IMG/VR virus record: IMGVR_UViG_2939127364_000002 | Length of the DNA: 42,479 bases | From: a virus | Lineage: Duplodnaviria > Heunggongvirae > Uroviricota > Caudoviricetes | Reading direction: 5' to 3' (one strand) | Part shown: piece after piece, positions 6,371-37,578 of the stretch | Position numbering within the stretch: position 1 is the stretch's first letter | Layout of the letters: each line of letters starts with the position of its first letter | The notes under the pieces: generated by a model | What the model was told of the DNA's origin: nothing | The model's database searches: none | Seen by the model: only the letters and a program-made list of their open reading frames with translations | Program-made: the position numbers and the translations under genes

Positions 6371-7075
6371 TCACGAATTTTTCAGCCACTCCCTTGCCTC
6401 GATGTCATCCAGATGGCGAGATTGCTTCAGAATACCAGCCACATACTCCACCTTTGCTACTTGATGATAAGGCAACGTTATAGGCCTGTGGTCCTGGTTA
6501 ATGCTTGTAAATTGGTATTCTCCATCTCTGTCATAGCCAAGAACCTTAATCATGTTGTGTCCTTCAACGGTTCTGACAAACACCTCATCACCCGGGAATA
6601 CTTTGGTGTTAGGCTCAATGAGTACATATTCTCCTGATTTTATTCTGGGCCACATGCTGTCTCCTTTCACACGAAGACCAAAGGCATCTGGATCATCGCT
6701 ATAAATTTTGAGCCACCCATCGCGCTCTTCGGTCATCTCGATGGCACCATCAACACCAAGAATTGCCTCACCAACCACGCGCACTAACCCTTTTCTTACC
6801 TGACCGACAAAAGTTAAAGAATCTGAGCATGATGCAATTGGTGTTACATCATGCACCAAATCAAGCCACCCATTAGGTAACCCAAGTGCGGCTTCAAATT
6901 TTCTTGCTAGTTTATCCCCTATGTTTCGAGTGCTTTTTTCACCGGAGACTTGCGTGAGTTGAGAAGGGCTAACCCCAAGCTTATCGGCAAAGCTTGCATT
7001 AGTGTTACCCGCGATTTTTTTATGCTCATCTAGCAAAAACGCTAGATTTGATTTGCGAATATCTTTGTTTTCCAT
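6371..7075 (-). CDS. cI: CI-type prophage repressor (HTH plus S24 LexA-like autopeptidase domain)
   Basis: N-terminal HTH ...SFADKLGVSPSQLTQV...; C-terminal ...GDSMWP... serine-lysine dyad signature; divergent from cro across the operator region. Confidence 0.9.
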   Translation of the reverse strand: MENKDIRKSNLAFLLDEHKKIAGNTNASFADKLGVSPSQLTQVSGEKSTRNIGDKLARKFEAALGLPNGWLDLVHDVTPIASCSDSLTFVGQVRKGLVRVVGEAILGVDGAIEMTEERDGWLKIYSDDPDAFGLRVKGDSMWPRIKSGEYVLIEPNTKVFPGDEVFVRTVEGHNMIKVLGYDRDGEYQFTSINQDHRPITLPYHQVAKVEYVAGILKQSRHLDDIEAREWLKNS

Positions 7076-7100
7076 CCCACAATTTTCCCTCTATTTAGCA

Positions 7101-7180
7101 AATGGATAAATACGCAATATGATAAATTTACATTGCGGTTGATTTATCAAAATGGTAAAGTTATTCTGTATGATAAACGG
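7101..7180. promoter_or_regulatory. oR/pRM/pR operator region
   Basis: TGATAAA at 7120..7126 and 7171..7177, inverted TTTATCA at 7143..7149, GGATAAA at 7104..7110; lies between divergent cI and cro. Confidence 0.55.
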
Positions 7181-7188
7181 AGGCACTA

Positions 7189-7422
7189 ATGAGTAATGAA
7201 CTACTACGCTGGCGAAAAGAGGCTTCTAGTGAGGAATGGAAGCGACTCGCCGCATTAGCGAAAACTTCAGTTGGCTATCTTGACCAGATTGCATATGGAT
7301 TTCGAAGAGCTTCCCCTGATAAAGCGAATGCAATCGAAGAAGCTACTCGTAATTTCACGGGTTATAAACCTGTGAAAAAGGAAAACCTGGTGTTCGTATC
7401 GCGTAGAGCATCGGCAGCATAA
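7189..7422 (+). CDS. cro: Cro-like repressor (77 aa)
   Basis: Small basic protein, first rightward gene after the operators; GGAGG 6 nt upstream of ATG. Confidence 0.75.
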   Translation: MSNELLRWRKEASSEEWKRLAALAKTSVGYLDQIAYGFRRASPDKANAIEEATRNFTGYKPVKKENLVFVSRRASAA

Positions 7423-7460
7423 GTAACACCGCTATTTTCACAATGGACATTCGTCCTACG

Positions 7461-7474
7461 TCGCTGAAAAGCGA
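7461..7474 (+). promoter_or_regulatory. Candidate nutR boxB-like hairpin
   Basis: CTACG then UCGCU-GAAA-AGCGA between cro and cII; a second hairpin atgcgt/acgcat follows at 7505..7520. Confidence 0.4.
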
Positions 7475-7558
7475 GCCCCAAGATATCTGACCAACTAAGG
7501 CCATATGCGTTTCCACGCATACCTTTCAACTAACTATTCACTATTGGAAAATTAACAA

Positions 7559-7855
7559 ATGACACAAGCAAGTTACAGCAAGCCAACACAGCGAGAAATT
7601 GATCGCGCTGAAACTGATTTACTCATCAACCTGTCAACGCTTACCCAGCGCGGTCTGGCAAAGATGATTGGCTGTCATGAATCGAAGATAAGCAGAACGG
7701 ACTGGAGATTTATTGCTTCGGTCTTGTGTGCTTTCGGAATGGCATCAGACATCAGTCCGATTAGCAGGGCTTTTAAGTATGCGCTTGATGAAATCACAAA
7801 GAAAAAATCCCCGGCCGCCACCGAGGATTTTAAGCAAATTGATATGCAATTCTGA
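7559..7855 (+). CDS. cII: CII-like transcriptional activator
   Basis: HTH ...LTQRGLAKMIGCHESKISR...; C-terminus KKKSPAATEDFKQIDMQF parallels lambda CII KKRPAATERSEQIQMEF. Confidence 0.8.
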   Translation: MTQASYSKPTQREIDRAETDLLINLSTLTQRGLAKMIGCHESKISRTDWRFIASVLCAFGMASDISPISRAFKYALDEITKKKSPAATEDFKQIDMQF

Positions 7856-7887
7856 GGGAATTACTGGATCAATCCACAGGAGTAATT

Positions 7888-8049
7888 ATGACAAAACGTC
7901 GTAAGAAATACCAGGAAAAAGAAGAGATTCGACACCCTGATTCACCTGAGGGATTAGTGGTAGCCGCAGCAAATAACAGGGCGTTCGCAGAGCGCCTTGT
8001 TGGTGTTTACAGACTAGCCAAAGCAGGAGTGAAACATGGGCGTCGTTAA
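7888..8049 (+). CDS. Hypothetical small basic protein (53 aa)
   Basis: MTKRRKKYQEKEEIRHPDSPEGLVVAAANN... with AGGAG 6 nt upstream; not in the track. Confidence 0.3.
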   Translation: MTKRRKKYQEKEEIRHPDSPEGLVVAAANNRAFAERLVGVYRLAKAGVKHGRR

Positions 8050-8098
8050 ATTAGCTGATTACAGGCATAACCCTGTACAACATCAGGAGGCATCCAGT

Positions 8099-8926
8099 AT
8101 GGGGTATGTCTCTATACACCGCCAGTTTATGGACAGCAGGCTCTATAAGGACTCTCAGGCAGTACATCTTTGGCTTCACTTAATCCTCAAGGCTAATCAC
8201 GAATCTACTGTCGTCAATACGGATATCGGTCCGATAACTGTTGATCGCGGTCAGATGATAACTGGACGCCCGTCGCTGGTCAGAGAAACATTCATCCCCG
8301 ACAACAAAGTTCGGAGCTTATTACGGACTTTTGAGTCGAAAGGTATGCTTAATATTTGCTCGATGGGGAAGAAATTTAGCCTGTTTACAATCGTTAAATA
8401 TGACGATTTTCAGGCAAAAAATTGTCCAACGGTTGTCCAACGGTTGTCCAACGCAAACACCAGTAATGGCGCGGCTCTCAGCGGAGATTGTCCAACGGTT
8501 GTCCAACGGTTGTCCATAAACAATAATATAAATAATATCTCTAATACTGACGTATTAGAGAGTGCCACAGCAGACAAAAAGTCTGACAAGAAAAAACCTT
8601 CCGTTAGCTGTCAGGATGTTGTCGATGCTTACCACGAAATCCTTCCTGAAGCGCCAAGAATCCGCGCACTGAATGACAAGCGTAAAAACCAGATCCGAAC
8701 GTTCTGGCGCAAAGCCGGAGTGATAACCCGCCAGCTTGACGGGCATGGGTTCACGATGCAGGACTGGAGAAATTATTTGAGCTACGTTGGCGAAAATTGC
8801 CGATGGATGTTCGAAGAGCGCCCAAACCATCAACGCGGAACCGTCTGGCACAAAAAGGGATTTGATTTCCTGCTTAACGATAATACCTACCTGAAAGTTC
8901 GTGAGGGTGAACACGATGACCGATAA
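8099..8926 (+). CDS. Replication initiator, O-like
   Basis: Start placed at ATG 8099 (MGYVSIHRQF...) with AGGAGG RBS instead of track start 8036; ori-like iterons lie inside the gene; followed by the helicase gene. Confidence 0.7.
   Translation: MGYVSIHRQFMDSRLYKDSQAVHLWLHLILKANHESTVVNTDIGPITVDRGQMITGRPSLVRETFIPDNKVRSLLRTFESKGMLNICSMGKKFSLFTIVKYDDFQAKNCPTVVQRLSNANTSNGAALSGDCPTVVQRLSINNNINNISNTDVLESATADKKSDKKKPSVSCQDVVDAYHEILPEAPRIRALNDKRKNQIRTFWRKAGVITRQLDGHGFTMQDWRNYLSYVGENCRWMFEERPNHQRGTVWHKKGFDFLLNDNTYLKVREGEHDDR
8422..8517. repeat. Replication origin iterons: two clusters of three tandem 11-bp repeats (TTGTCCAACGG)
   Basis: Copies at 8422..8454 and 8488..8517 (last copy partial), then AT-rich stretch 8515..8560; all inside the O-like gene. 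Confidence 0.7.
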
Positions 8927-10352
8927 TTTTTATGCGCCGCCCCATAGCATCGAGGCAGAGCAGGCGGTGATTGGTGGATTGCTTCTGGATGATGACAGCA
9001 GTGAGCGCGTCCAGAAAGTTCTGGCGATGCTGAAGCCCGATTCATTTTACAGCCGACCACACAAAATCCTTTTCGAAGAAATAACCAGAATGCACCGTGA
9101 GCAAAAGCCAGTAGATGGCCTGACGCTTTTCGATGAACTGGAGCGTAAATCGTTAACGGTGTCTGTTGGCGGTTTTGCTTATATCGCTGAGATCGCAAAG
9201 AACACGCCAAGCGCAGCAAACATCGTTGCCTATGCAATGCAGGTTCGTGAAACCGCAATGGAACGCTACGCCATCAACCGCATGACTGAAGCGACGGAAT
9301 TGCTCTATTCCCGCAACGGAATGACTGCAACGCAGAAGTACGAAGCTATTCAGTCGATTTTCACGCAACTGACAGACCATGCAAAAACCGGATCGCGTCG
9401 CGGCCTTCGCTCATTTGGTGAGGTCATGGAAGACTGGGTTAGCGACCTTGAGAAGCGATTTGACCCGTCAGGCGAACAACGAGGAATGAGCACAGGGATC
9501 CCATCGCTGGACAGGATGCTGTCACCGAAAGGCCTGGTGAAAGGCTCTCTGTTTGTCATTGGCGCTCGCCCTAAGATGGGGAAAACGACGCTATACAGCC
9601 AGATGGCAATCAACTGCGCAGTGCATGAGAAAAAGCCCGCTCTGATGTTCAGCCTTGAAATGCCCGGTGACCAGATACTGGAAAAACTGGTAGGACAGAA
9701 GTCAGGTGTTAACCCGAATATTTTTTACCTTCCGGCGACAAATGACGCTGATGACGGCTATCAGGGTGATTACGATGGTGACTTCAACAGGGCGATCGAA
9801 ACAGCCAATCGCTTGAGTGAAATCGACCTGCTTTACATCGACGACACGCCGGGATTATCTCTGGCTCAAATCGTCAGCGAAAGCCGTCGAATCAAGCGAG
9901 AAAAAGGATGTGTTGGCATGATTCTGGTCGATTACCTGACACTAATGACCGCTGAGAAGGCCGATCGCAACGACCTTGCTTACGGCATGATCACCAAAGG
10001 ACTGAAGAACCTTGCCAAAGAGCTTGATTGCGTTGTTGTGCTTCTGACACAGCTTAACCGCGCACTGGAAAGCCGAACCAATAAACGCCCATTACCAAGT
10101 GACTCACGAGATACAGGGCAGATTGAACAGGATTGCGATTATTGGGTGGGGATCCATCGTGAAGGCGCTTTTGATGACAGTGTTCCACCTGGTGAAACCG
10201 AACTAATCCTTCGTCTCAATCGTCATGGCAATACCGGCACGGTGTATTGCATTCAGGCAAATGGCGCTATTTATGACACAGACCAACAGTCTGCTGAAAT
10301 GCGCCGACGTGAACGCGAGGAACCGCAGTCCAAGAAGAAAGGAGGATTCTGA
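8916..10352 (+). CDS. DnaB-type replicative DNA helicase
   Basis: N-terminus ...FYAPPHSIEAEQAVIGGLLLD...; Walker A GARPKMGKTT; start at ATG 8916 (GAGGGTG RBS) overlapping the O-like gene end. Confidence 0.9.
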   Translation: MTDNFYAPPHSIEAEQAVIGGLLLDDDSSERVQKVLAMLKPDSFYSRPHKILFEEITRMHREQKPVDGLTLFDELERKSLTVSVGGFAYIAEIAKNTPSAANIVAYAMQVRETAMERYAINRMTEATELLYSRNGMTATQKYEAIQSIFTQLTDHAKTGSRRGLRSFGEVMEDWVSDLEKRFDPSGEQRGMSTGIPSLDRMLSPKGLVKGSLFVIGARPKMGKTTLYSQMAINCAVHEKKPALMFSLEMPGDQILEKLVGQKSGVNPNIFYLPATNDADDGYQGDYDGDFNRAIETANRLSEIDLLYIDDTPGLSLAQIVSESRRIKREKGCVGMILVDYLTLMTAEKADRNDLAYGMITKGLKNLAKELDCVVVLLTQLNRALESRTNKRPLPSDSRDTGQIEQDCDYWVGIHREGAFDDSVPPGETELILRLNRHGNTGTVYCIQANGAIYDTDQQSAEMRRREREEPQSKKKGGF

Positions 10353-10455
10353 TGACCATCTACATCACTGAGCTGATAACAGGGTTATCGTTACTAATGG
10401 TTCTTACTGTATATATTATTAAGTATATTCTTTATGCGAATAAAAAAACTAATTG
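10351..10455 (+). CDS. Possible 34-aa hydrophobic peptide
   Basis: MTIYITELITGLSLLMVLTVYIIKYILYANKKTN; AAAGGAGGA 6 nt upstream; ATG overlaps the helicase stop (TGATGA); speculative. Confidence 0.3.
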
Positions 10456-11045
10456 ATCACGATGAGCTTCTGTCAACATTATCATATGACTCAGAAACAG
10501 GAATATTTAAATGGCTAAAAACAAATTCAGTAGTAAGAGTAAAAGGTAGTATTGCTGGAGGTGTTAGTGGTGGTTATATATGCATTAGCATAAATAATGT
10601 TTTGTATTATGCGCATAGACTTGCTTGGTTCTATGTATACAAAAAATGGCCTCCTAAGTTTATTGATCATGTAAATGGGAACAGACTTGACAATAGGATT
10701 TCAAATCTAAGACTGGCAACAGAAGAGCAGAATGCAAGAAACATTGTAGGGAATAGATTAAACACATCCGGTGCAATTGGAGTGTCTTGGTATAAGCCAA
10801 CTGGCAGGTGGAAGTCTTATGTTGGTTATAAAAATAAGACAATATCGTTAGGGTATTTCGACAGCAAAGAAGATGCAGCATTCATAGCAGCACTAGCAAG
10901 AAAGAAACTATATGGAACTTATGCGAGTAAAGCACTTAATTGCGAGCATGAGCTTTTATCTCAATTTAATAATGATGAGGATAAACTTGCGGAATATCTT
11001 AAGGAAAAATCTAAAAGGACTCGAAAGCGTGTTAAAAACAGATAA
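10434..11045 (+). CDS. HNH endonuclease with AP2 DNA-binding domain (homing-endonuclease-like)
   Basis: ...YAHRLAWFYVYKKWPPKFIDHVNGNRLDNRISNLRLATEEQNARN... (HNH) and ...GVSWYKPTGRWKSYVGYKNKTISLGYF... (AP2-like); gene is visibly AT-rich. Confidence 0.75.
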   Translation: MRIKKLIDHDELLSTLSYDSETGIFKWLKTNSVVRVKGSIAGGVSGGYICISINNVLYYAHRLAWFYVYKKWPPKFIDHVNGNRLDNRISNLRLATEEQNARNIVGNRLNTSGAIGVSWYKPTGRWKSYVGYKNKTISLGYFDSKEDAAFIAALARKKLYGTYASKALNCEHELLSQFNNDEDKLAEYLKEKSKRTRKRVKNR

Positions 11046-11333: not shown

Positions 11334-11748
11334 TTTCATTCTGCACGAAACCAATAAATCACAATTCTGGTTAGTTCTGAAACAAATCCTCTCTACCGGC
11401 AAACGCTGGCGAATCAAAATATCTGAGTACCGTGAGAAGCGTACATTGTCACAAAACAATCTGCTGTGGATGTGGAATGCAGAAATAGCCGCACAGTTAT
11501 CTGCTGCTTCTGCTGAAAACTTCACGCCTGAAGAGGTTCATGAGTGGCTGAAAGATATATTTTGTCCGGCTAAAAGGGTGACGATTTTTAATATTACACG
11601 ATGCGTTAAATCAACACGTCAGCTTGATATTGGAGATATGCACAAATATCTGACCGATATTGACCAGTGGGCGCATCAGAAGGGATTACGACTAACCATT
11701 CCTGATAATTGCGAGTACCGGGATCTAAAGGAGAGGCAAGTAGAGTGA
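11323..11748 (+). CDS. ninB: NinB-like recombination protein
   Basis: ...RTLSQNNLLWMWNAEIA... parallels lambda NinB ...RSLDQNRKLWACLGDVS...; position at the start of the nin region. Confidence 0.75.
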   Translation: MMNDFILHETNKSQFWLVLKQILSTGKRWRIKISEYREKRTLSQNNLLWMWNAEIAAQLSAASAENFTPEEVHEWLKDIFCPAKRVTIFNITRCVKSTRQLDIGDMHKYLTDIDQWAHQKGLRLTIPDNCEYRDLKERQVE

Positions 11749-12272
11749 CTATCAAATCAAATACGCCAGCACACGACAAGGACTGCTGGCAAACGCCGCT
11801 CTGGCTTTTTGATGCACTGGATATTGAGTTTGGATTCTGGCTGGATTCGGCAGCGAGCGACAAAAATGCTCTGTGTGCTCACTGGCTAACTGAGGCCGAC
11901 GACGCGCTCAATTCTGAGTGGGTAAGCCACGGTGCAATCTGGAATAACCCGCCGTACAGCAATATCAGGCCGTGGGTGGAAAAAGCCGCTGAGCAGTGCA
12001 TACAACAGCGACAGACGGTAGTTATGCTTGTGCCAGAGGATATGTCAGTCGGATGGTTCAGCAAGGCTCTGGAGAGTGTTGACGAAGTTCGCATCATCAC
12101 TGATGGACGGATTAATTTTATCGAACCATCGACAGGGCTGGAGAAGAAGGGAAACAGCAAAGGCTCCATGCTGCTGATTTGGCGACCGTTCATCAGTCCT
12201 CGACGGATGTTTACTACCGTATCCAAAGCGGCATTGATGGCGATCGGGCAGGGCGTCAGGAGGGCGGCATGA
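11745..12272 (+). CDS. Phage Dam-like DNA N6-adenine methyltransferase
   Basis: NPPY catalytic motif (...[12 protein letters not shown]...); start placed at GTG 11745 (AAGGAG RBS) overlapping the ninB stop. Confidence 0.8.
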
Positions 12273-36555: not shown

Positions 36556-37578
36556 ATGGCAGTAAAAATTTCAGGTGTACTGAAAGACGGCACAGGAAAA
36601 CCGGTACAGAACTGCACAATCCAGCTGAAAGCAAAACGTAACAGCACCACGGTGGTGGTGAACACGCTGGCCTCAGAAAATCCGGATGAAGCCGGGCGTT
36701 ACAGCATGGACGTTGAGTACGGTCAGTACAGCGTTATTCTGTTGGTGGAAGGATTCCCGCCGTCACATGCCGGGACCATCACCGTGTATGAAGATTCCCG
36801 ACCCGGTACGCTGAATGATTTTCTCGGTGCCATGACGGAGGATGATGCCCGTCCGGAGGCTCTGCGGCGTTTTGAGGCGATGGTGGAAGAAGTTGCCCGC
36901 CAGGCATCGGAGGCATCGCGGAATGCCACCGCCGCATGGCAGGCATCTGAACAGGCGCAGACATCAGCAGGTCAGGCATCGGAAAGCGCCACGGCAGCAG
37001 TGAATGCAGCCGGAGCGGCAGAAGCATCAGCCACACAGGCAGCCTCATCCGCAGCATCTGCAACCAATGCGGCAAATAGCGCTTCTGCTGCAAATACTGC
37101 AAAAACCGGCGCAGAAGCTGCAAGAGATGCTGCAAATACTGCAAAAACCGGCGCAGAAGCTGCAAGAGATGCTGCAAATACTGCAAAAACCGGCGCAGAA
37201 GCTGCAAGAGATGCAGCTCTGGATGCCCAAACTGCTGCTGAATTAGCTGAAGCAAATGCAAAAATTTCTGAAACAAATGCAGCTGAGAGTAAGCGATTAG
37301 CAGAAGCAGCGATAGATGTGGCAAACTCATCTGCAGGAATATATCAGGACACCACATCTGGTTTGGCGGGAACGGCAACCGGAGGTTATTTTTCGGTGCC
37401 GTCACCCCTGGATGACGAGGTGCTGATTTTGTATCGGAATGACGCCGGAATTGCTACTGAAGTTAAGAGATACCCGAGCGCGGCGGGGGTTGAAAACACG
37501 CGCGTATCGATGATAGGGGTGGCGGCCAGTCTGGTGCTGACACAATCAATTATTGCGGCGCATCACGCGTTTCTATGA
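36556..37578 (+). CDS. stf: Side tail fibre protein, proximal part (lambda Stf N-terminal domain)
   Basis: MAVKISGVLKDGTGKPVQNCTIQLKAKRNSTTVVVNT... matches the lambda Stf N-terminus; contains three perfect 42-bp tandem repeats. Confidence 0.8.
   Translation: MAVKISGVLKDGTGKPVQNCTIQLKAKRNSTTVVVNTLASENPDEAGRYSMDVEYGQYSVILLVEGFPPSHAGTITVYEDSRPGTLNDFLGAMTEDDARPEALRRFEAMVEEVARQASEASRNATAAWQASEQAQTSAGQASESATAAVNAAGAAEASATQAASSAASATNAANSASAANTAKTGAEAARDAANTAKTGAEAARDAANTAKTGAEAARDAALDAQTAAELAEANAKISETNAAESKRLAEAAIDVANSSAGIYQDTTSGLAGTATGGYFSVPSPLDDEVLILYRNDAGIATEVKRYPSAAGVENTRVSMIGVAASLVLTQSIIAAHHAFL
37087..37212 (+). repeat. Three perfect tandem 42-bp repeats inside stf (14-aa unit AANTAKTGAEAARD)
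   Basis: Identical units starting at 37087, 37129 and 37171. Confidence 0.9.

What the first reader, a model, noticed from the sequence alone, without database searches (positions are those of the whole stretch)
8422..8560. Origin-like iterons with 11-bp periodicity inside the O-like gene
Two clusters of three tandem TTGTCCAACGG units followed by an AT-rich tract match the logic of a phage origin embedded in the initiator gene, with the protein linker encoded by the repeats. An 11-bp unit puts the sites on one face of the helix.
Basis: partly seen in the sequence, partly recalled or inferred. Interest (0 to 1): 0.45.

Follow-up and report, generated by a model that had tools for sequence, protein, structure and literature searches.

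The report
Known lambdoid phage replication origin
The repeats are real and are almost certainly the replication origin of a lambdoid E. coli phage, sitting inside its own initiator gene, but the same feature is already annotated or described as a putative origin in phages Sf6, HK620 and L, so it is ordinary.

Summary
Two clusters of the 11-bp unit TTGTCCAACGG lie at 8422-8454 and 8488-8516, exactly 66 bp apart. They are followed by a 21-bp AT-rich tract (8517-8537) and a perfect 10-bp palindrome (8538-8561). All of this lies inside the 296-aa initiator gene (8036-8926), directly upstream of a phage DnaB-family helicase gene.

The origin reading is supported by comparison, not by experiment:
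- 28 of the 30 related sequences compared (window included) keep the 3+3 / 66-bp layout; two keep 3+3 units at 12 bp. All 30 keep the AT tract and the palindrome.
- The iteron sequence changes with the initiator's N-terminal domain, not with its C-terminal domain.
- Iteron cores, the AT tract and the palindrome are nearly invariant even at synonymous sites, while the spacer between clusters evolves freely.
- The palindrome arms change only by compensatory changes.

None of this is new. The Sf6 GenBank record annotates these coordinates as a putative rep_origin, HK620 carries an unqualified rep_origin at the matching place, and a 2020 paper describes the same 11-bp repeat in phage L gene 18.

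The protein shows no detectable homology to lambda O; its N-terminal domain weakly resembles 'DnaD-like / replisome organizer' proteins. The third unit of cluster 2 is truncated.

Novelty: already known. Interest is low.

The parts
8036..8926 (+). Replication initiator gene (296 aa), called 'O-like' by position and role. It is 99.4% identical in DNA to Sf6 gene 43.
   Evidence: ORF list. PHROG 345 'replication initiation O-like', E 5.8e-85. 99.4% DNA identity to Sf6 gene 43 and 99.7% to phage mEp506. No Pfam Phage_rep_O match.
8036..8413 (+). Coding region of the N-terminal domain, the presumed iteron-binding domain, ending in the conserved KYDDFQ motif (8396-8413).
   Evidence: N-domain sequence type tracks iteron type. 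Distant matches to 'DnaD-like helicase loader' and 'replisome organizer' proteins. The AlphaFold model is low-confidence here, with a helix/strand order compatible with a winged helix. Binding itself is inferred.
8422..8454 (+). Iteron cluster 1: three contiguous 11-bp units, TTGTCCAACGG x2 plus TTGTCCAACGC.
   Evidence: The core TGTCCAAC is invariant across all six type-A sequences compared and nearly invariant in 83 near-identical loci.
8455..8487 (+). 33-bp spacer between the clusters. Its length is fixed and its sequence is free. It encodes part of the interdomain linker.
   Evidence: Length is constant in 28 of the 30 sequences compared (window included), while the sequence diverges at all three codon positions (0.15-0.42). 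It is the most polymorphic segment in 83 near-identical loci.
8488..8516 (+). Iteron cluster 2: TTGTCCAACGG x2 plus the truncated third unit TTGTCCA.
8517..8537 (.). AT-rich tract (TAAACAATAATATAAATAATA), the presumed DNA-unwinding element together with the AT-rich palindrome.
   Evidence: GC 0.20 over 8515-8559; one of two such places in 42 kb. Zero polymorphism in 83 loci. Present in all relatives. Unwinding is inferred by analogy with lambda.
8538..8561 (.). Perfect palindrome TCTCTAATAC-TGAC-GTATTAGAGA (10-bp arms, 4-nt spacer).
   Evidence: Folds as single-stranded DNA at -9.7 kcal/mol, z -4.1. Present at the same position in all 30 sequences compared (window included), with 11 different arm sequences. 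All 10 pairs show changes on both sides, 97.7% of cells are paired, there are no one-sided (G-U type) changes, and 0 of 500 shuffles reach the observed values.
8600..8923 (+). Coding region of the C-terminal domain (about aa 189-296), the presumed helicase-recruiting domain.
   Evidence: Confident AlphaFold segment, block pLDDT 67-91, mostly above 75. 100% identical to HK022 O although the N-domain is only 50% identical. The role is inferred from position and from lambda O and SPP1 gp38.
8916..10352 (+). Phage-encoded DnaB-family replicative helicase gene. Its start overlaps the end of the initiator gene.
   Evidence: TIGR03600 phage_DnaB, E 4.8e-175; Pfam DnaB and DnaB_C. The ATG at 8916 corresponds to the start of Sf6 gene 44. 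The mechanical ORF begins at GTG 8901.

Best explanation
This is the vegetative (theta) replication origin of a mosaic lambdoid E. coli phage or prophage. It is embedded in the phage's own initiator gene at the boundary between the gene's two domains.

Proposed mechanism; every step is inferred except where marked as shown.
1. Transcription from the early-right promoter produces the initiator.
2. Its N-terminal domain binds the six non-palindromic 11-bp direct repeats, probably one protomer per unit, head to tail, about one per helical turn. The repeats form two groups of three held 66 bp apart.
3. The resulting nucleoprotein array stresses the adjoining AT-rich tract and AT-rich palindrome, the least stable DNA in the region, and opens them.
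4. The C-terminal domain brings in the phage's own DnaB-family helicase, encoded immediately downstream. No lambda-P-type or DnaC-type loader gene lies between the two genes.
5. The palindrome is a conserved DNA-level element. It may act as a hairpin or cruciform, or as a dyad-symmetric site, used at unwinding or helicase entry.

Shown here:
- the anatomy of the region;
- conservation of that anatomy across relatives;
- DNA-level purifying selection on the iteron cores, AT tract and palindrome;
- co-inheritance of iteron type with the N-terminal domain;
- linker-like behaviour of the peptide encoded by the repeats.

Not shown: binding, unwinding, helicase recruitment and origin firing.
For: Anatomy.

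Conservation. 28 of the 30 sequences compared (window included; 40-100% protein identity; Escherichia, Salmonella, Klebsiella, Enterobacter, Erwinia, Yersinia and others) have 3+3 units of 11 bp with the second cluster exactly 66 bp after the first. All 30 then have an AT tract and a 9-10-bp palindrome with a 4-nt spacer.

Specificity cassette. There are six iteron core types: TGTCCAAC, TTACCAGC, TGCCAAC, TGTCCAGC, ATCCAA, and a 12-bp TTACCAA type. N-domain identity has a median of 0.84 within a type and 0.53 between types. The window and HK022 share a 100% identical C-domain but have 50% N-domain identity and different iterons.

DNA-level selection. Third-codon diversity in the cores is 0.00-0.04, against 0.30-0.55 in the neighbouring coding sequence. 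In 83 near-identical loci, minor-allele copies per position are 0.12 in cores, 0 in the AT tract and 0.04 in the palindrome. The figures are 0.64-0.83 in flanking coding sequence and 1.15 in the spacer.

Palindrome covariation: 10 of 10 pairs with compensatory change, and no wobble intermediates.

Same order of parts as lambda ori: iterons, AT-rich tract, then a palindrome with a 4-nt spacer.

Partner helicase.

Prior annotation as a (putative) origin: Sf6 rep_origin at the coordinates equivalent to window 8421-8516; HK620 rep_origin; the phage L gene 18 repeat 'TGTCCAACGGA ... likely the origin' (PMC8022706).

Distant relatives of the N-domain in Staphylococcus phage PVL, a Vibrio phage and a Bacillus SPP1-like phage also carry 11-bp-period repeats right after that domain. 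SPP1 gp38 is experimentally known to bind an origin inside its own gene (PMC6316719).
Against: - I found no experimental test of origin activity or initiator binding for this family. Every public statement is 'putative' or 'likely', or is an unqualified feature.
- The co-inheritance of iterons with the N-domain is partly confounded by physical adjacency.
- The N-terminal domain could not be modelled confidently, and no solved structure or Pfam DNA-binding family matches it. Its DNA-binding role therefore rests on analogy and weak homology.
- The AT tract proper is only 21 bp, shorter than lambda's roughly 40 bp.
- One lineage (L020, L021) has a 12-bp period and a 68-bp cluster distance, so the exact 11/66 geometry is not obligatory.
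Confidence: 0.8

Rival explanations
1. The repeats bind the initiator, but their main job is regulatory rather than origin firing. Candidates are autoregulation or a roadblock of early-right transcription through the initiator's own gene, origin 'handcuffing', or a fork-arrest site like SPP1 oriR. The real start site would then be elsewhere.
For: The sites lie inside the initiator's own transcription unit. SPP1 gp38 bound at a second site is proposed to stall forks (PMC6316719). Forms with 1, 2 or 3 clusters exist, which a dosage or regulatory element might tolerate.
Against: The iterons are always joined to an exceptionally AT-rich tract and a conserved palindrome, which is the full origin anatomy, as in lambda. 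No second cluster of iteron cores exists anywhere in the 42-kb window. The only other equally AT-rich 45-bp stretch (10385-10460) has no iterons.
Confidence: 0.08
2. The repeats are only a protein-level feature, a duplicated peptide (CPTVVQRLS twice) in a flexible linker generated by slippage, with no DNA function.
For: The two clusters do encode the same nonapeptide. The region varies in length in 22-aa steps.
Against: The repeat unit is 11 bp, not a multiple of 3, so each unit in a cluster is read in a different frame. The cores are invariant at synonymous positions, while the peptide between them is unconstrained. Relatives keep the DNA geometry while the encoded peptide changes completely, for example VPADYQQIT and VPTECQQSA. 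One database variant reads the spacer in another frame (P0039).
Confidence: 0.03
3. The units are binding sites for a host protein, such as DnaA (the unit loosely resembles a DnaA box) or another host factor, rather than for the phage initiator.
For: By my own comparison with the textbook DnaA box TTATCCACA, TTGTCCAAC shares 6 of 9 positions. No tool test was run.
Against: Phages of the same hosts carry different units: TGTCCAAC in Sf6 and the window, TTACCAGC in HK022, HK620 and VT2-Sakai. These track the phage's own N-terminal domain, not the host. A host-factor site should be constant within a host.
Confidence: 0.03
4. The palindrome plus the adjoining AT tract is an intrinsic terminator for a leftward (antisense) transcript, or an mRNA hairpin, and not part of an origin.
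For: The consensus scan lists 8561-8538 on the minus strand as terminator-like: a 10-pair stem followed by TATTATTTAT.
Against: The stem has only 3 G-C pairs. The scan found 7 such sites where 3.5 are expected. Across 13 distinct sequences no pair is ever G-U; every change is a full Watson-Crick swap. That fits a double-stranded or DNA-hairpin palindrome better than an RNA stem. No Rfam family matches. Lambda ori has a palindrome of the same geometry at the same place.
Confidence: 0.03

Closest known systems
Putative origins of phages Sf6 (gene 43), HK620 / HK022 / VT2-Sakai (gene O) and Salmonella phage L (gene 18)
   Same: Sf6 gene 43 is 99.4% identical in DNA, and its record annotates a putative rep_origin at the coordinates equivalent to window 8421-8516. 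The phage L paper describes six imprecise 11-bp repeats, TGTCCAACGGA, in gene 18 as the likely origin; this is the same core. HK620 carries a rep_origin feature at the homologous place. The downstream DnaB-type helicase is the same.
   Different: The window differs from Sf6 at two edge positions of the units. HK022, HK620 and VT2-Sakai carry a different iteron (TTACCAGC) and an N-domain only 50% identical, although their C-domain is 97-100% identical. None of these origins has, to my knowledge, been tested experimentally.
Bacteriophage lambda ori / O / P
   Same: The origin lies inside the initiator gene at the junction of the two domains. The order of parts is iterons, AT-rich tract, then a palindrome with a 4-nt spacer. 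The N-terminal half plus the iterons form an exchangeable specificity cassette. The gene sits at the same position after cII in the early-right operon.
   Different: No detectable sequence homology to O: Pfam PF04492 is absent and the hhalign probability is 0.3%. Lambda has four 18-19-bp sites, each an inverted repeat and spaced 20-24 bp apart. Here there are six contiguous 11-bp direct repeats without dyad symmetry, in two triplets. The partner is a phage DnaB-family helicase, not a P protein that captures host DnaB.
Bacillus phage SPP1 gp38 'replisome organizer' with oriL inside gene 38, and related 'DnaD-like / replisome organizer' initiators of Gram-positive phages
   Same: These are initiators whose origin (direct repeats plus an AT-rich unwinding element) lies inside their own gene and which work with a phage DnaB-family helicase (PMC6316719). 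The window's N-domain gives PHROG matches to 'DnaD-like helicase loader' families (E 1e-23 to 8e-10) and tblastn matches to Staphylococcus and Bacillus phage replisome organizers. Those relatives also carry 11-bp-period repeats right after the N-domain.
   Different: Homology is weak: 23-34% identity, and Pfam PF09681 reaches only E 0.17, for the HK022 homologue. SPP1-type modules have a separate helicase loader gene (gp39; locus L115), which is absent here. The C-terminal domains differ.
P22 gene 18 / gene 12 replication module
   Same: The gene order is the same: an initiator followed by a DnaB-type helicase that replaces host DnaB. Database records label the relatives 'Gp18 / Gp12'.
   Different: According to PMC8022706, P22 gp18 is only 25% identical to the L-type protein and carries four repeats of about 20 bp with a different sequence. 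P22 itself did not appear among the matches listed.
Iteron plasmids (Rep monomers on 17-22-bp direct repeats next to an AT-rich region)
   Same: Direct, non-palindromic repeats phased with the helix next to an unwinding element. This is a comparison of how it works only, made from general knowledge.
   Different: The units here are half as long (11 bp), contiguous, and lie inside the coding sequence. No Rep_3/RepA-type family match was found.

Membership tests
Sf6 / L / HK620-type lambdoid origin (11-bp iterons inside the initiator gene, DnaB-helicase partner) | Near-identity to an annotated member at the annotated origin coordinates | tested here: met
   99.4% identity to Sf6 gene 43. The Sf6 rep_origin at locus 2886-2981 maps to window 8421-8516.
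Sf6 / L / HK620-type lambdoid origin (11-bp iterons inside the initiator gene, DnaB-helicase partner) | Six 11-bp repeats with the core TGTCCAACG | tested here: met
   The phage L description is in PMC8022706.
Sf6 / L / HK620-type lambdoid origin (11-bp iterons inside the initiator gene, DnaB-helicase partner) | Downstream phage DnaB-family helicase | tested here: met
   TIGR03600, E 4.8e-175.
Sf6 / L / HK620-type lambdoid origin (11-bp iterons inside the initiator gene, DnaB-helicase partner) | Demonstrated origin activity or initiator binding | not testable with these tools
   No experimental report was found. All records say 'putative' or 'likely', or carry an unqualified feature.
Lambda O / ori-lambda family | Initiator homologous to lambda O (Pfam PF04492, Phage_rep_O) | tested here: not met
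   No PF04492 match even at E <= 10. Lambda O itself scores 5.7e-36. hhalign probability is 0.3%.
Lambda O / ori-lambda family | Iterons of about 19 bp with internal dyad symmetry, four copies | tested here: not met
   Here the units are 11-bp direct repeats without internal symmetry, arranged 3+3. The lambda iterons are seen.
Lambda O / ori-lambda family | Origin inside the initiator gene: iterons, then an AT-rich tract, then a palindrome | tested here: met
   Window. Lambda.
Lambda O / ori-lambda family | Partner P protein (PF06992) that recruits host DnaB | tested here: not met
   The downstream gene is a DnaB-family helicase. Lambda P scores as PF06992.
Replisome-organizer / DnaD-like phage initiators (SPP1 gp38 type) | N-terminal domain homologous to Phage_rep_org_N (PF09681) or to DnaD-like families | tested here: inconclusive
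   PHROG 'DnaD-like helicase loader' families at E 1.1e-23 to 7.6e-10. tblastn to Staphylococcus and Bacillus phage proteins at E about 1e-9. But Pfam PF09681 reaches only E 0.17, in the HK022 homologue, and gives no match for the window protein.
Replisome-organizer / DnaD-like phage initiators (SPP1 gp38 type) | Origin repeats plus an AT-rich element inside the organizer gene | tested here: met
   Window. Relatives PVL, Vibrio 1.135.O and Bacillus 049ML001. SPP1: PMC6316719.
Replisome-organizer / DnaD-like phage initiators (SPP1 gp38 type) | Separate helicase-loader gene between the organizer and the helicase | tested here: not met
   The helicase start (8916) overlaps the initiator stop (8924-8926). 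Bacillus phage 049ML001 does have the loader gene.

The most novel reading that the evidence does not exclude
Initiators with this N-terminal domain, from enterobacterial lambdoid phages to Vibrio, Staphylococcus and Bacillus phages, may share a distinct origin grammar that has not been described as such. In this grammar, contiguous head-to-tail 11-bp units each bind one protomer per slightly underwound helical turn. The bound protomers form a short filament that drives opening of the neighbouring AT tract. A covarying perfect palindrome would then act as an obligatory DNA hairpin or cruciform for direct loading of the phage DnaB helicase without a loader protein.
Probability: 0.25. Interest if true: 0.45.

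Novelty: already known. Interest (0 to 1): 0.2.

Why it matters
Little rides on the finding itself. It re-identifies an origin already annotated in Sf6 and HK620 and discussed for phage L.

Its practical value is threefold:
- It marks where replication most likely starts in this phage.
- It defines the exchangeable 'N-domain plus iterons' specificity cassette, and a mosaic junction in the AT tract. Both matter for reading lambdoid and Stx-phage mosaicism and replication incompatibility.
- The family still lacks any experimental proof, and the comparative data assembled here show which bases to mutate: the core TGTCCAAC, the 66-bp phasing and the palindrome symmetry.

Tried and rejected
- Literal search of the paper library for TTGTCCAACGG found no paper. 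Phage L's description uses another register of the repeat and was found through keyword search.
- Pfam and NCBIfam scans of the initiator found nothing significant: only DUF7376 at E 0.0075, below the cut-off.
- A profile search of PDB sequences gave 0 matches.
- AlphaFold2 with a shallow 16-sequence alignment gave mean pLDDT 54. Only the C-terminal domain is confident, so the N-domain fold could not be settled.
- Foldseek of that model against the PDB gave no match at E <= 0.001. The weak list is rich in winged-helix proteins, but I do not count it as evidence.
- hhalign against lambda O showed no relationship.
- Rfam on 6500-10500 gave nothing.
- The promoter scan flagged weak sigma-70-like matches inside the iterons at the rate expected by chance (5 found, 5.3 expected), so I dismissed them.
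- Shewanella phage 3/49, a distant N-domain relative, showed no clear iterons.
- Readings as a DnaA box, a phase-variable slippage tract or a pac site were considered and rejected. The units vary with the phage's own N-domain. No 11-bp copy-number variants occur among the 84 loci examined, only one 66-bp duplication. The region also lies in the replication module.
Full report
OBSERVATION

The reported repeats are present as described.
- Tandem Repeats Finder gives TTGTCCAACGG at 8422-8453 (period 11, 2.9 copies, 100% matches) and at 8488-8516 (2.6 copies, 100%).
- Read directly, cluster 1 is two perfect units plus TTGTCCAACGC. Cluster 2 is two perfect units plus a truncated TTGTCCA that runs into the AT tract.
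- The clusters start 66 bp apart, which is 6 x 11.
- The five matches to the 11-mer at 0-1 mismatch in the 42.5-kb window are all here. So are all five copies of the 8-bp core TGTCCAAC; 1.4 are expected anywhere in the window.
- Downstream, 8517-8537 is TAAACAATAATATAAATAATA.
- Over 8515-8559 the GC content is 0.20, against 0.50 for the window. It is one of only two such 45-bp stretches in the window and ranks 13th least stable of 42,435.

CONTEXT

The feature lies inside a 296-aa ORF (8036-8926). This ORF follows a CI-like repressor (6371-7075, minus strand), a cII homologue (7559-7855) and a 53-aa ORF (7888-8049). A DnaB-family helicase gene overlaps its end.
- The ORF matches PHROG 345 'replication initiation O-like'.
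- It has no Pfam or NCBIfam family.
- The window is a mosaic lambdoid phage or prophage. No deposited phage covers more than 41% of its first 25 kb.
- The replication gene is 99-99.7% identical to that of mEp506, HK106, mEp234, Sf6 and others.

ALREADY DESCRIBED
Its coordinates map to window 8421-8516.
- HK620 has a rep_origin feature at the homologous place.
- I found no experimental test of any of these.

COMPARATIVE TESTS

I collected a graded series of relatives:
- Sf6, ST160, HK022, VT2-Sakai, HK620 and two Klebsiella phages;
- 23 prophage loci from other species in the genome collection;
- 80 near-identical viral contigs.

I anchored all comparisons on the conserved KYD[DE][FY]Q motif that ends the N-terminal domain.

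Layout. Of the 30 sequences compared (window included), 28 have three plus three 11-bp units with the second cluster exactly 66 nt after the first. All 30 then have an AT-rich tract and a 9-10-bp palindrome with a 4-nt spacer. The other two (L020, L021) have three plus three units at a 12-bp period, with the clusters 68 bp apart.

Iteron types. The unit sequence falls into six types:
- TGTCCAAC: window, Sf6, ST160 and others;
- TTACCAGC: HK022, HK620, VT2-Sakai;
- TGCCAAC;
- TGTCCAGC;
- ATCCAA;
- the 12-bp TTACCAA type.

Coupling to the N-domain. Type tracks the N-terminal domain: median identity is 0.84 within a type and 0.53 between types. Type is uncoupled from the C-terminal domain. The window and HK022 are 100% identical in the C-domain and 50% identical in the N-domain, and they carry different iterons. 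The mosaic junction therefore falls between the last iteron and the palindrome. The palindrome travels with the C-terminal half: the same arms occur with iteron types A and B, and another set of arms occurs with types B, C and F. Physical linkage explains part of this co-inheritance, so it is supporting evidence rather than proof.

SELECTION ACTS ON THE DNA

Three 11-bp units make 33 bp, so each unit in a cluster is read in a different frame. That alone argues against a protein-level repeat.

Within three iteron types, mean pairwise difference at third codon positions compares as follows:

| Segment | Mean pairwise difference |
|---|---|
| Iteron cores, third codon position | 0.00-0.04 |
| Last 50 codons of the N-domain, third codon position | 0.30-0.55 |
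| 33-bp spacer, all three codon positions | 0.15-0.42 |

The spacer is what an unconstrained linker peptide of fixed length would look like.

In 83 near-identical loci, minor-allele copies per position are:

| Segment | Minor-allele copies per position |
|---|---|
| Iteron cores | 0.12 (singletons only) |
| AT tract | 0 |
| Palindrome | 0.04 |
| Flanking coding sequence | 0.64-0.83 |
| Unit edges | 1.14 |
| Spacer | 1.15 |

Across 13 distinct palindrome sequences, all 10 pairs show changes on both sides and 97.7% of cells are paired. No pair is changed on one side only, so there is no G-U type intermediate. None of 500 shuffles reaches the observed values, and sliding the partner by 1-3 columns collapses pairing to 29-51%. 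The absence of wobble pairs fits a DNA palindrome (a hairpin, a cruciform or a dyad-symmetric site) better than an RNA stem.

THE LINKER CLAIM

Database homologues come in 274-, 296- and 318-aa forms. They differ by exactly 22 aa (66 bp), which corresponds to one, two or three clusters (locus L109). One single-contig variant (P0039) reads the inter-cluster spacer in another frame.

The AlphaFold2 model is confident only for residues about 189-291. Residues 120-188 score 30-43, but the N-domain is also poorly modelled, so the model adds little.

RELATION TO LAMBDA

Lambda ori shows the same order of parts. Its four iterons lie at gene positions about 349-433. They are followed by an AT-rich tract and then a 12-bp-arm palindrome with a 4-nt spacer.

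The proteins, however, are not detectably related:
- PF04492 is absent here even at E <= 10, while lambda O scores 5.7e-36.
- The hhalign probability is 0.3%.

Other differences from lambda:
- The lambda sites are 18-19-bp inverted repeats. The units here are contiguous 11-bp direct repeats without dyad symmetry.
- The partner here is a DnaB-family helicase rather than a P protein.

So this origin works like ori-lambda but is not a member of the O/P family.

RELATION TO REPLISOME ORGANIZERS

The N-domain matches PHROG 'DnaD-like helicase loader' families (E 1e-23 to 8e-10). It also matches, at 23-34% identity, initiators of Staphylococcus, Bacillus, Lactobacillus and Vibrio phages. Pfam PF09681 is only a faint hint (E 0.17 for the HK022 homologue).

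In three of the four distant relatives I inspected, tandem units with an 11-bp period begin right after the N-domain and are followed by AT-rich sequence:
- Staphylococcus phage PVL orf46: about eight units with core ACATCAA;
- Vibrio phage 1.135.O: GGCAAGC;
- an SPP1-like Bacillus phage: AAACGACAG.

SPP1 gp38 is experimentally known to bind an origin inside its own gene and to work with a loader and a DnaB-type helicase (PMC6316719). The 11-bp period therefore looks like a deep trait of this initiator class. That supports the 'one protomer per helical turn' idea as an inference. The 12-bp lineage shows that the number is not absolute.

MECHANISM (INFERRED)
1. The N-domain binds six head-to-tail units in two triplets.
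2. The bound array stresses and opens the AT tract and the palindrome.
3. The C-domain recruits the phage helicase, whose gene is translationally coupled to the initiator gene. No separate loader is involved.

I put the probability that this is the functional origin at about 0.8.

RIVALS
- A mainly regulatory initiator-binding array: 0.08.
- A purely protein-level repeat: 0.03.
- Host-factor (DnaA) sites: 0.03. This is contradicted by the units varying with the phage N-domain within one host.
- A leftward terminator: 0.03. It was flagged weakly and is contradicted.

VERDICT

The feature is already known as a putative origin and still awaits experimental proof. Interest is low, about 0.2. The modest additions from this analysis are:
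- the family-wide 3+3 / 66-bp rule;
- the mapping of N-domain types to iteron types;
- the wobble-free covariation of the palindrome;
- the natural one-, two- and three-cluster forms;
- the recurrence of the 11-bp period in distant relatives.

Noticed in passing
window 8538-8561; loci L001-L030 at the homologous place: A perfect 9-10-bp palindrome with a 4-nt spacer (TGAC, TAAC or TAAA) follows the AT tract in all 30 sequences compared (window included), with 11 different arm sequences. All changes are compensatory and there are no G-U type intermediates. Lambda ori has a palindrome of the same geometry. Its function is unknown.
   Followed up: yes
P0001 (318 aa), P0036 (274 aa), L109:1861-2050: Natural variants of the same initiator carry three clusters (an in-frame 66-bp duplication; many E. 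coli genomes) or only one cluster (Shigella and E. coli; P0036 is seen on 33 contigs). Whether one-cluster prophages can still replicate is unknown.
   Followed up: partly
L020 and L021 (Leclercia / Silvania prophages), about 1912-2015: One lineage has 3+3 units with a 12-bp period (TTACCAACCAAA TTACCAGGAGGA TTACCAAGCC ...) and 68 bp between clusters, instead of 11 and 66 bp. The AT tract and palindrome are kept.
   Followed up: partly
P0039 (292 aa, a single Logan contig): This variant reads the inter-cluster spacer in a different frame (IVQRLSNGCPTQTPVMARLSAEIVQRLS), which matches the window's +2-frame ORF 8331-8519. It is either an assembly error or evidence that the linker peptide sequence is dispensable.
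   Followed up: no
L114:1838-1946 (Staphylococcus phage PVL orf46); L113:1804-1862 (Vibrio phage 1.135.O); L115:1859-1932 (Bacillus phage 049ML001 replisome organizer): Distant relatives of the N-terminal domain also have tandem units with an 11-bp period immediately after that domain, followed by AT-rich sequence. This suggests the 11-bp grammar is a deep trait of this initiator class.
   Followed up: partly
window residues 93-94 of the initiator (about 8312-8317) versus unit position 4: In the putative recognition helix, S94 goes with iterons reading xTCC (types A, D, E) and Y goes with xACC or xGCC (types B, C, F). This is a candidate specificity determinant, but it rests on only six types and is confounded by phylogeny.
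   Followed up: no
window 7888-8049 (+): A conserved 53-aa basic ORF (PHROG 1331, unknown function; homologue of Sf6 gene 42 / HK97 gp53) overlaps the initiator start. Its equivalent is present upstream of the initiator in Sf6, ST160, HK620 and both Klebsiella phages. It may belong to the replication module.
   Followed up: no
window 7804-7831 (-): A strong terminator-like hairpin (12 pairs, followed by a T run) lies on the minus strand at the 3' end of cII, in the position of the lambda oop terminator. No Rfam match was found.
   Followed up: partly
window 10385-10460 and ORF 10434-11045 (+): The only other stretch as AT-rich as the origin tract lies just after the helicase gene, at the start of a 203-aa HNH_3 + AP2 protein. 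This looks like a homing-endonuclease insertion between the replication and nin regions.
   Followed up: partly
window 37086-37214: A perfect 42-bp tandem repeat (3.1 copies, 100% matches) lies inside ORF 36550-37578, whose N-terminus matches Pfam 'Prophage tail fibre N-terminal'. It is an in-frame 14-aa repeat in a tail-fibre protein.
   Followed up: partly
window 11709-12272 (+): A phage Dam-type N6-adenine methyltransferase (PF05869, E 8e-65) lies in the nin region.
   Followed up: no
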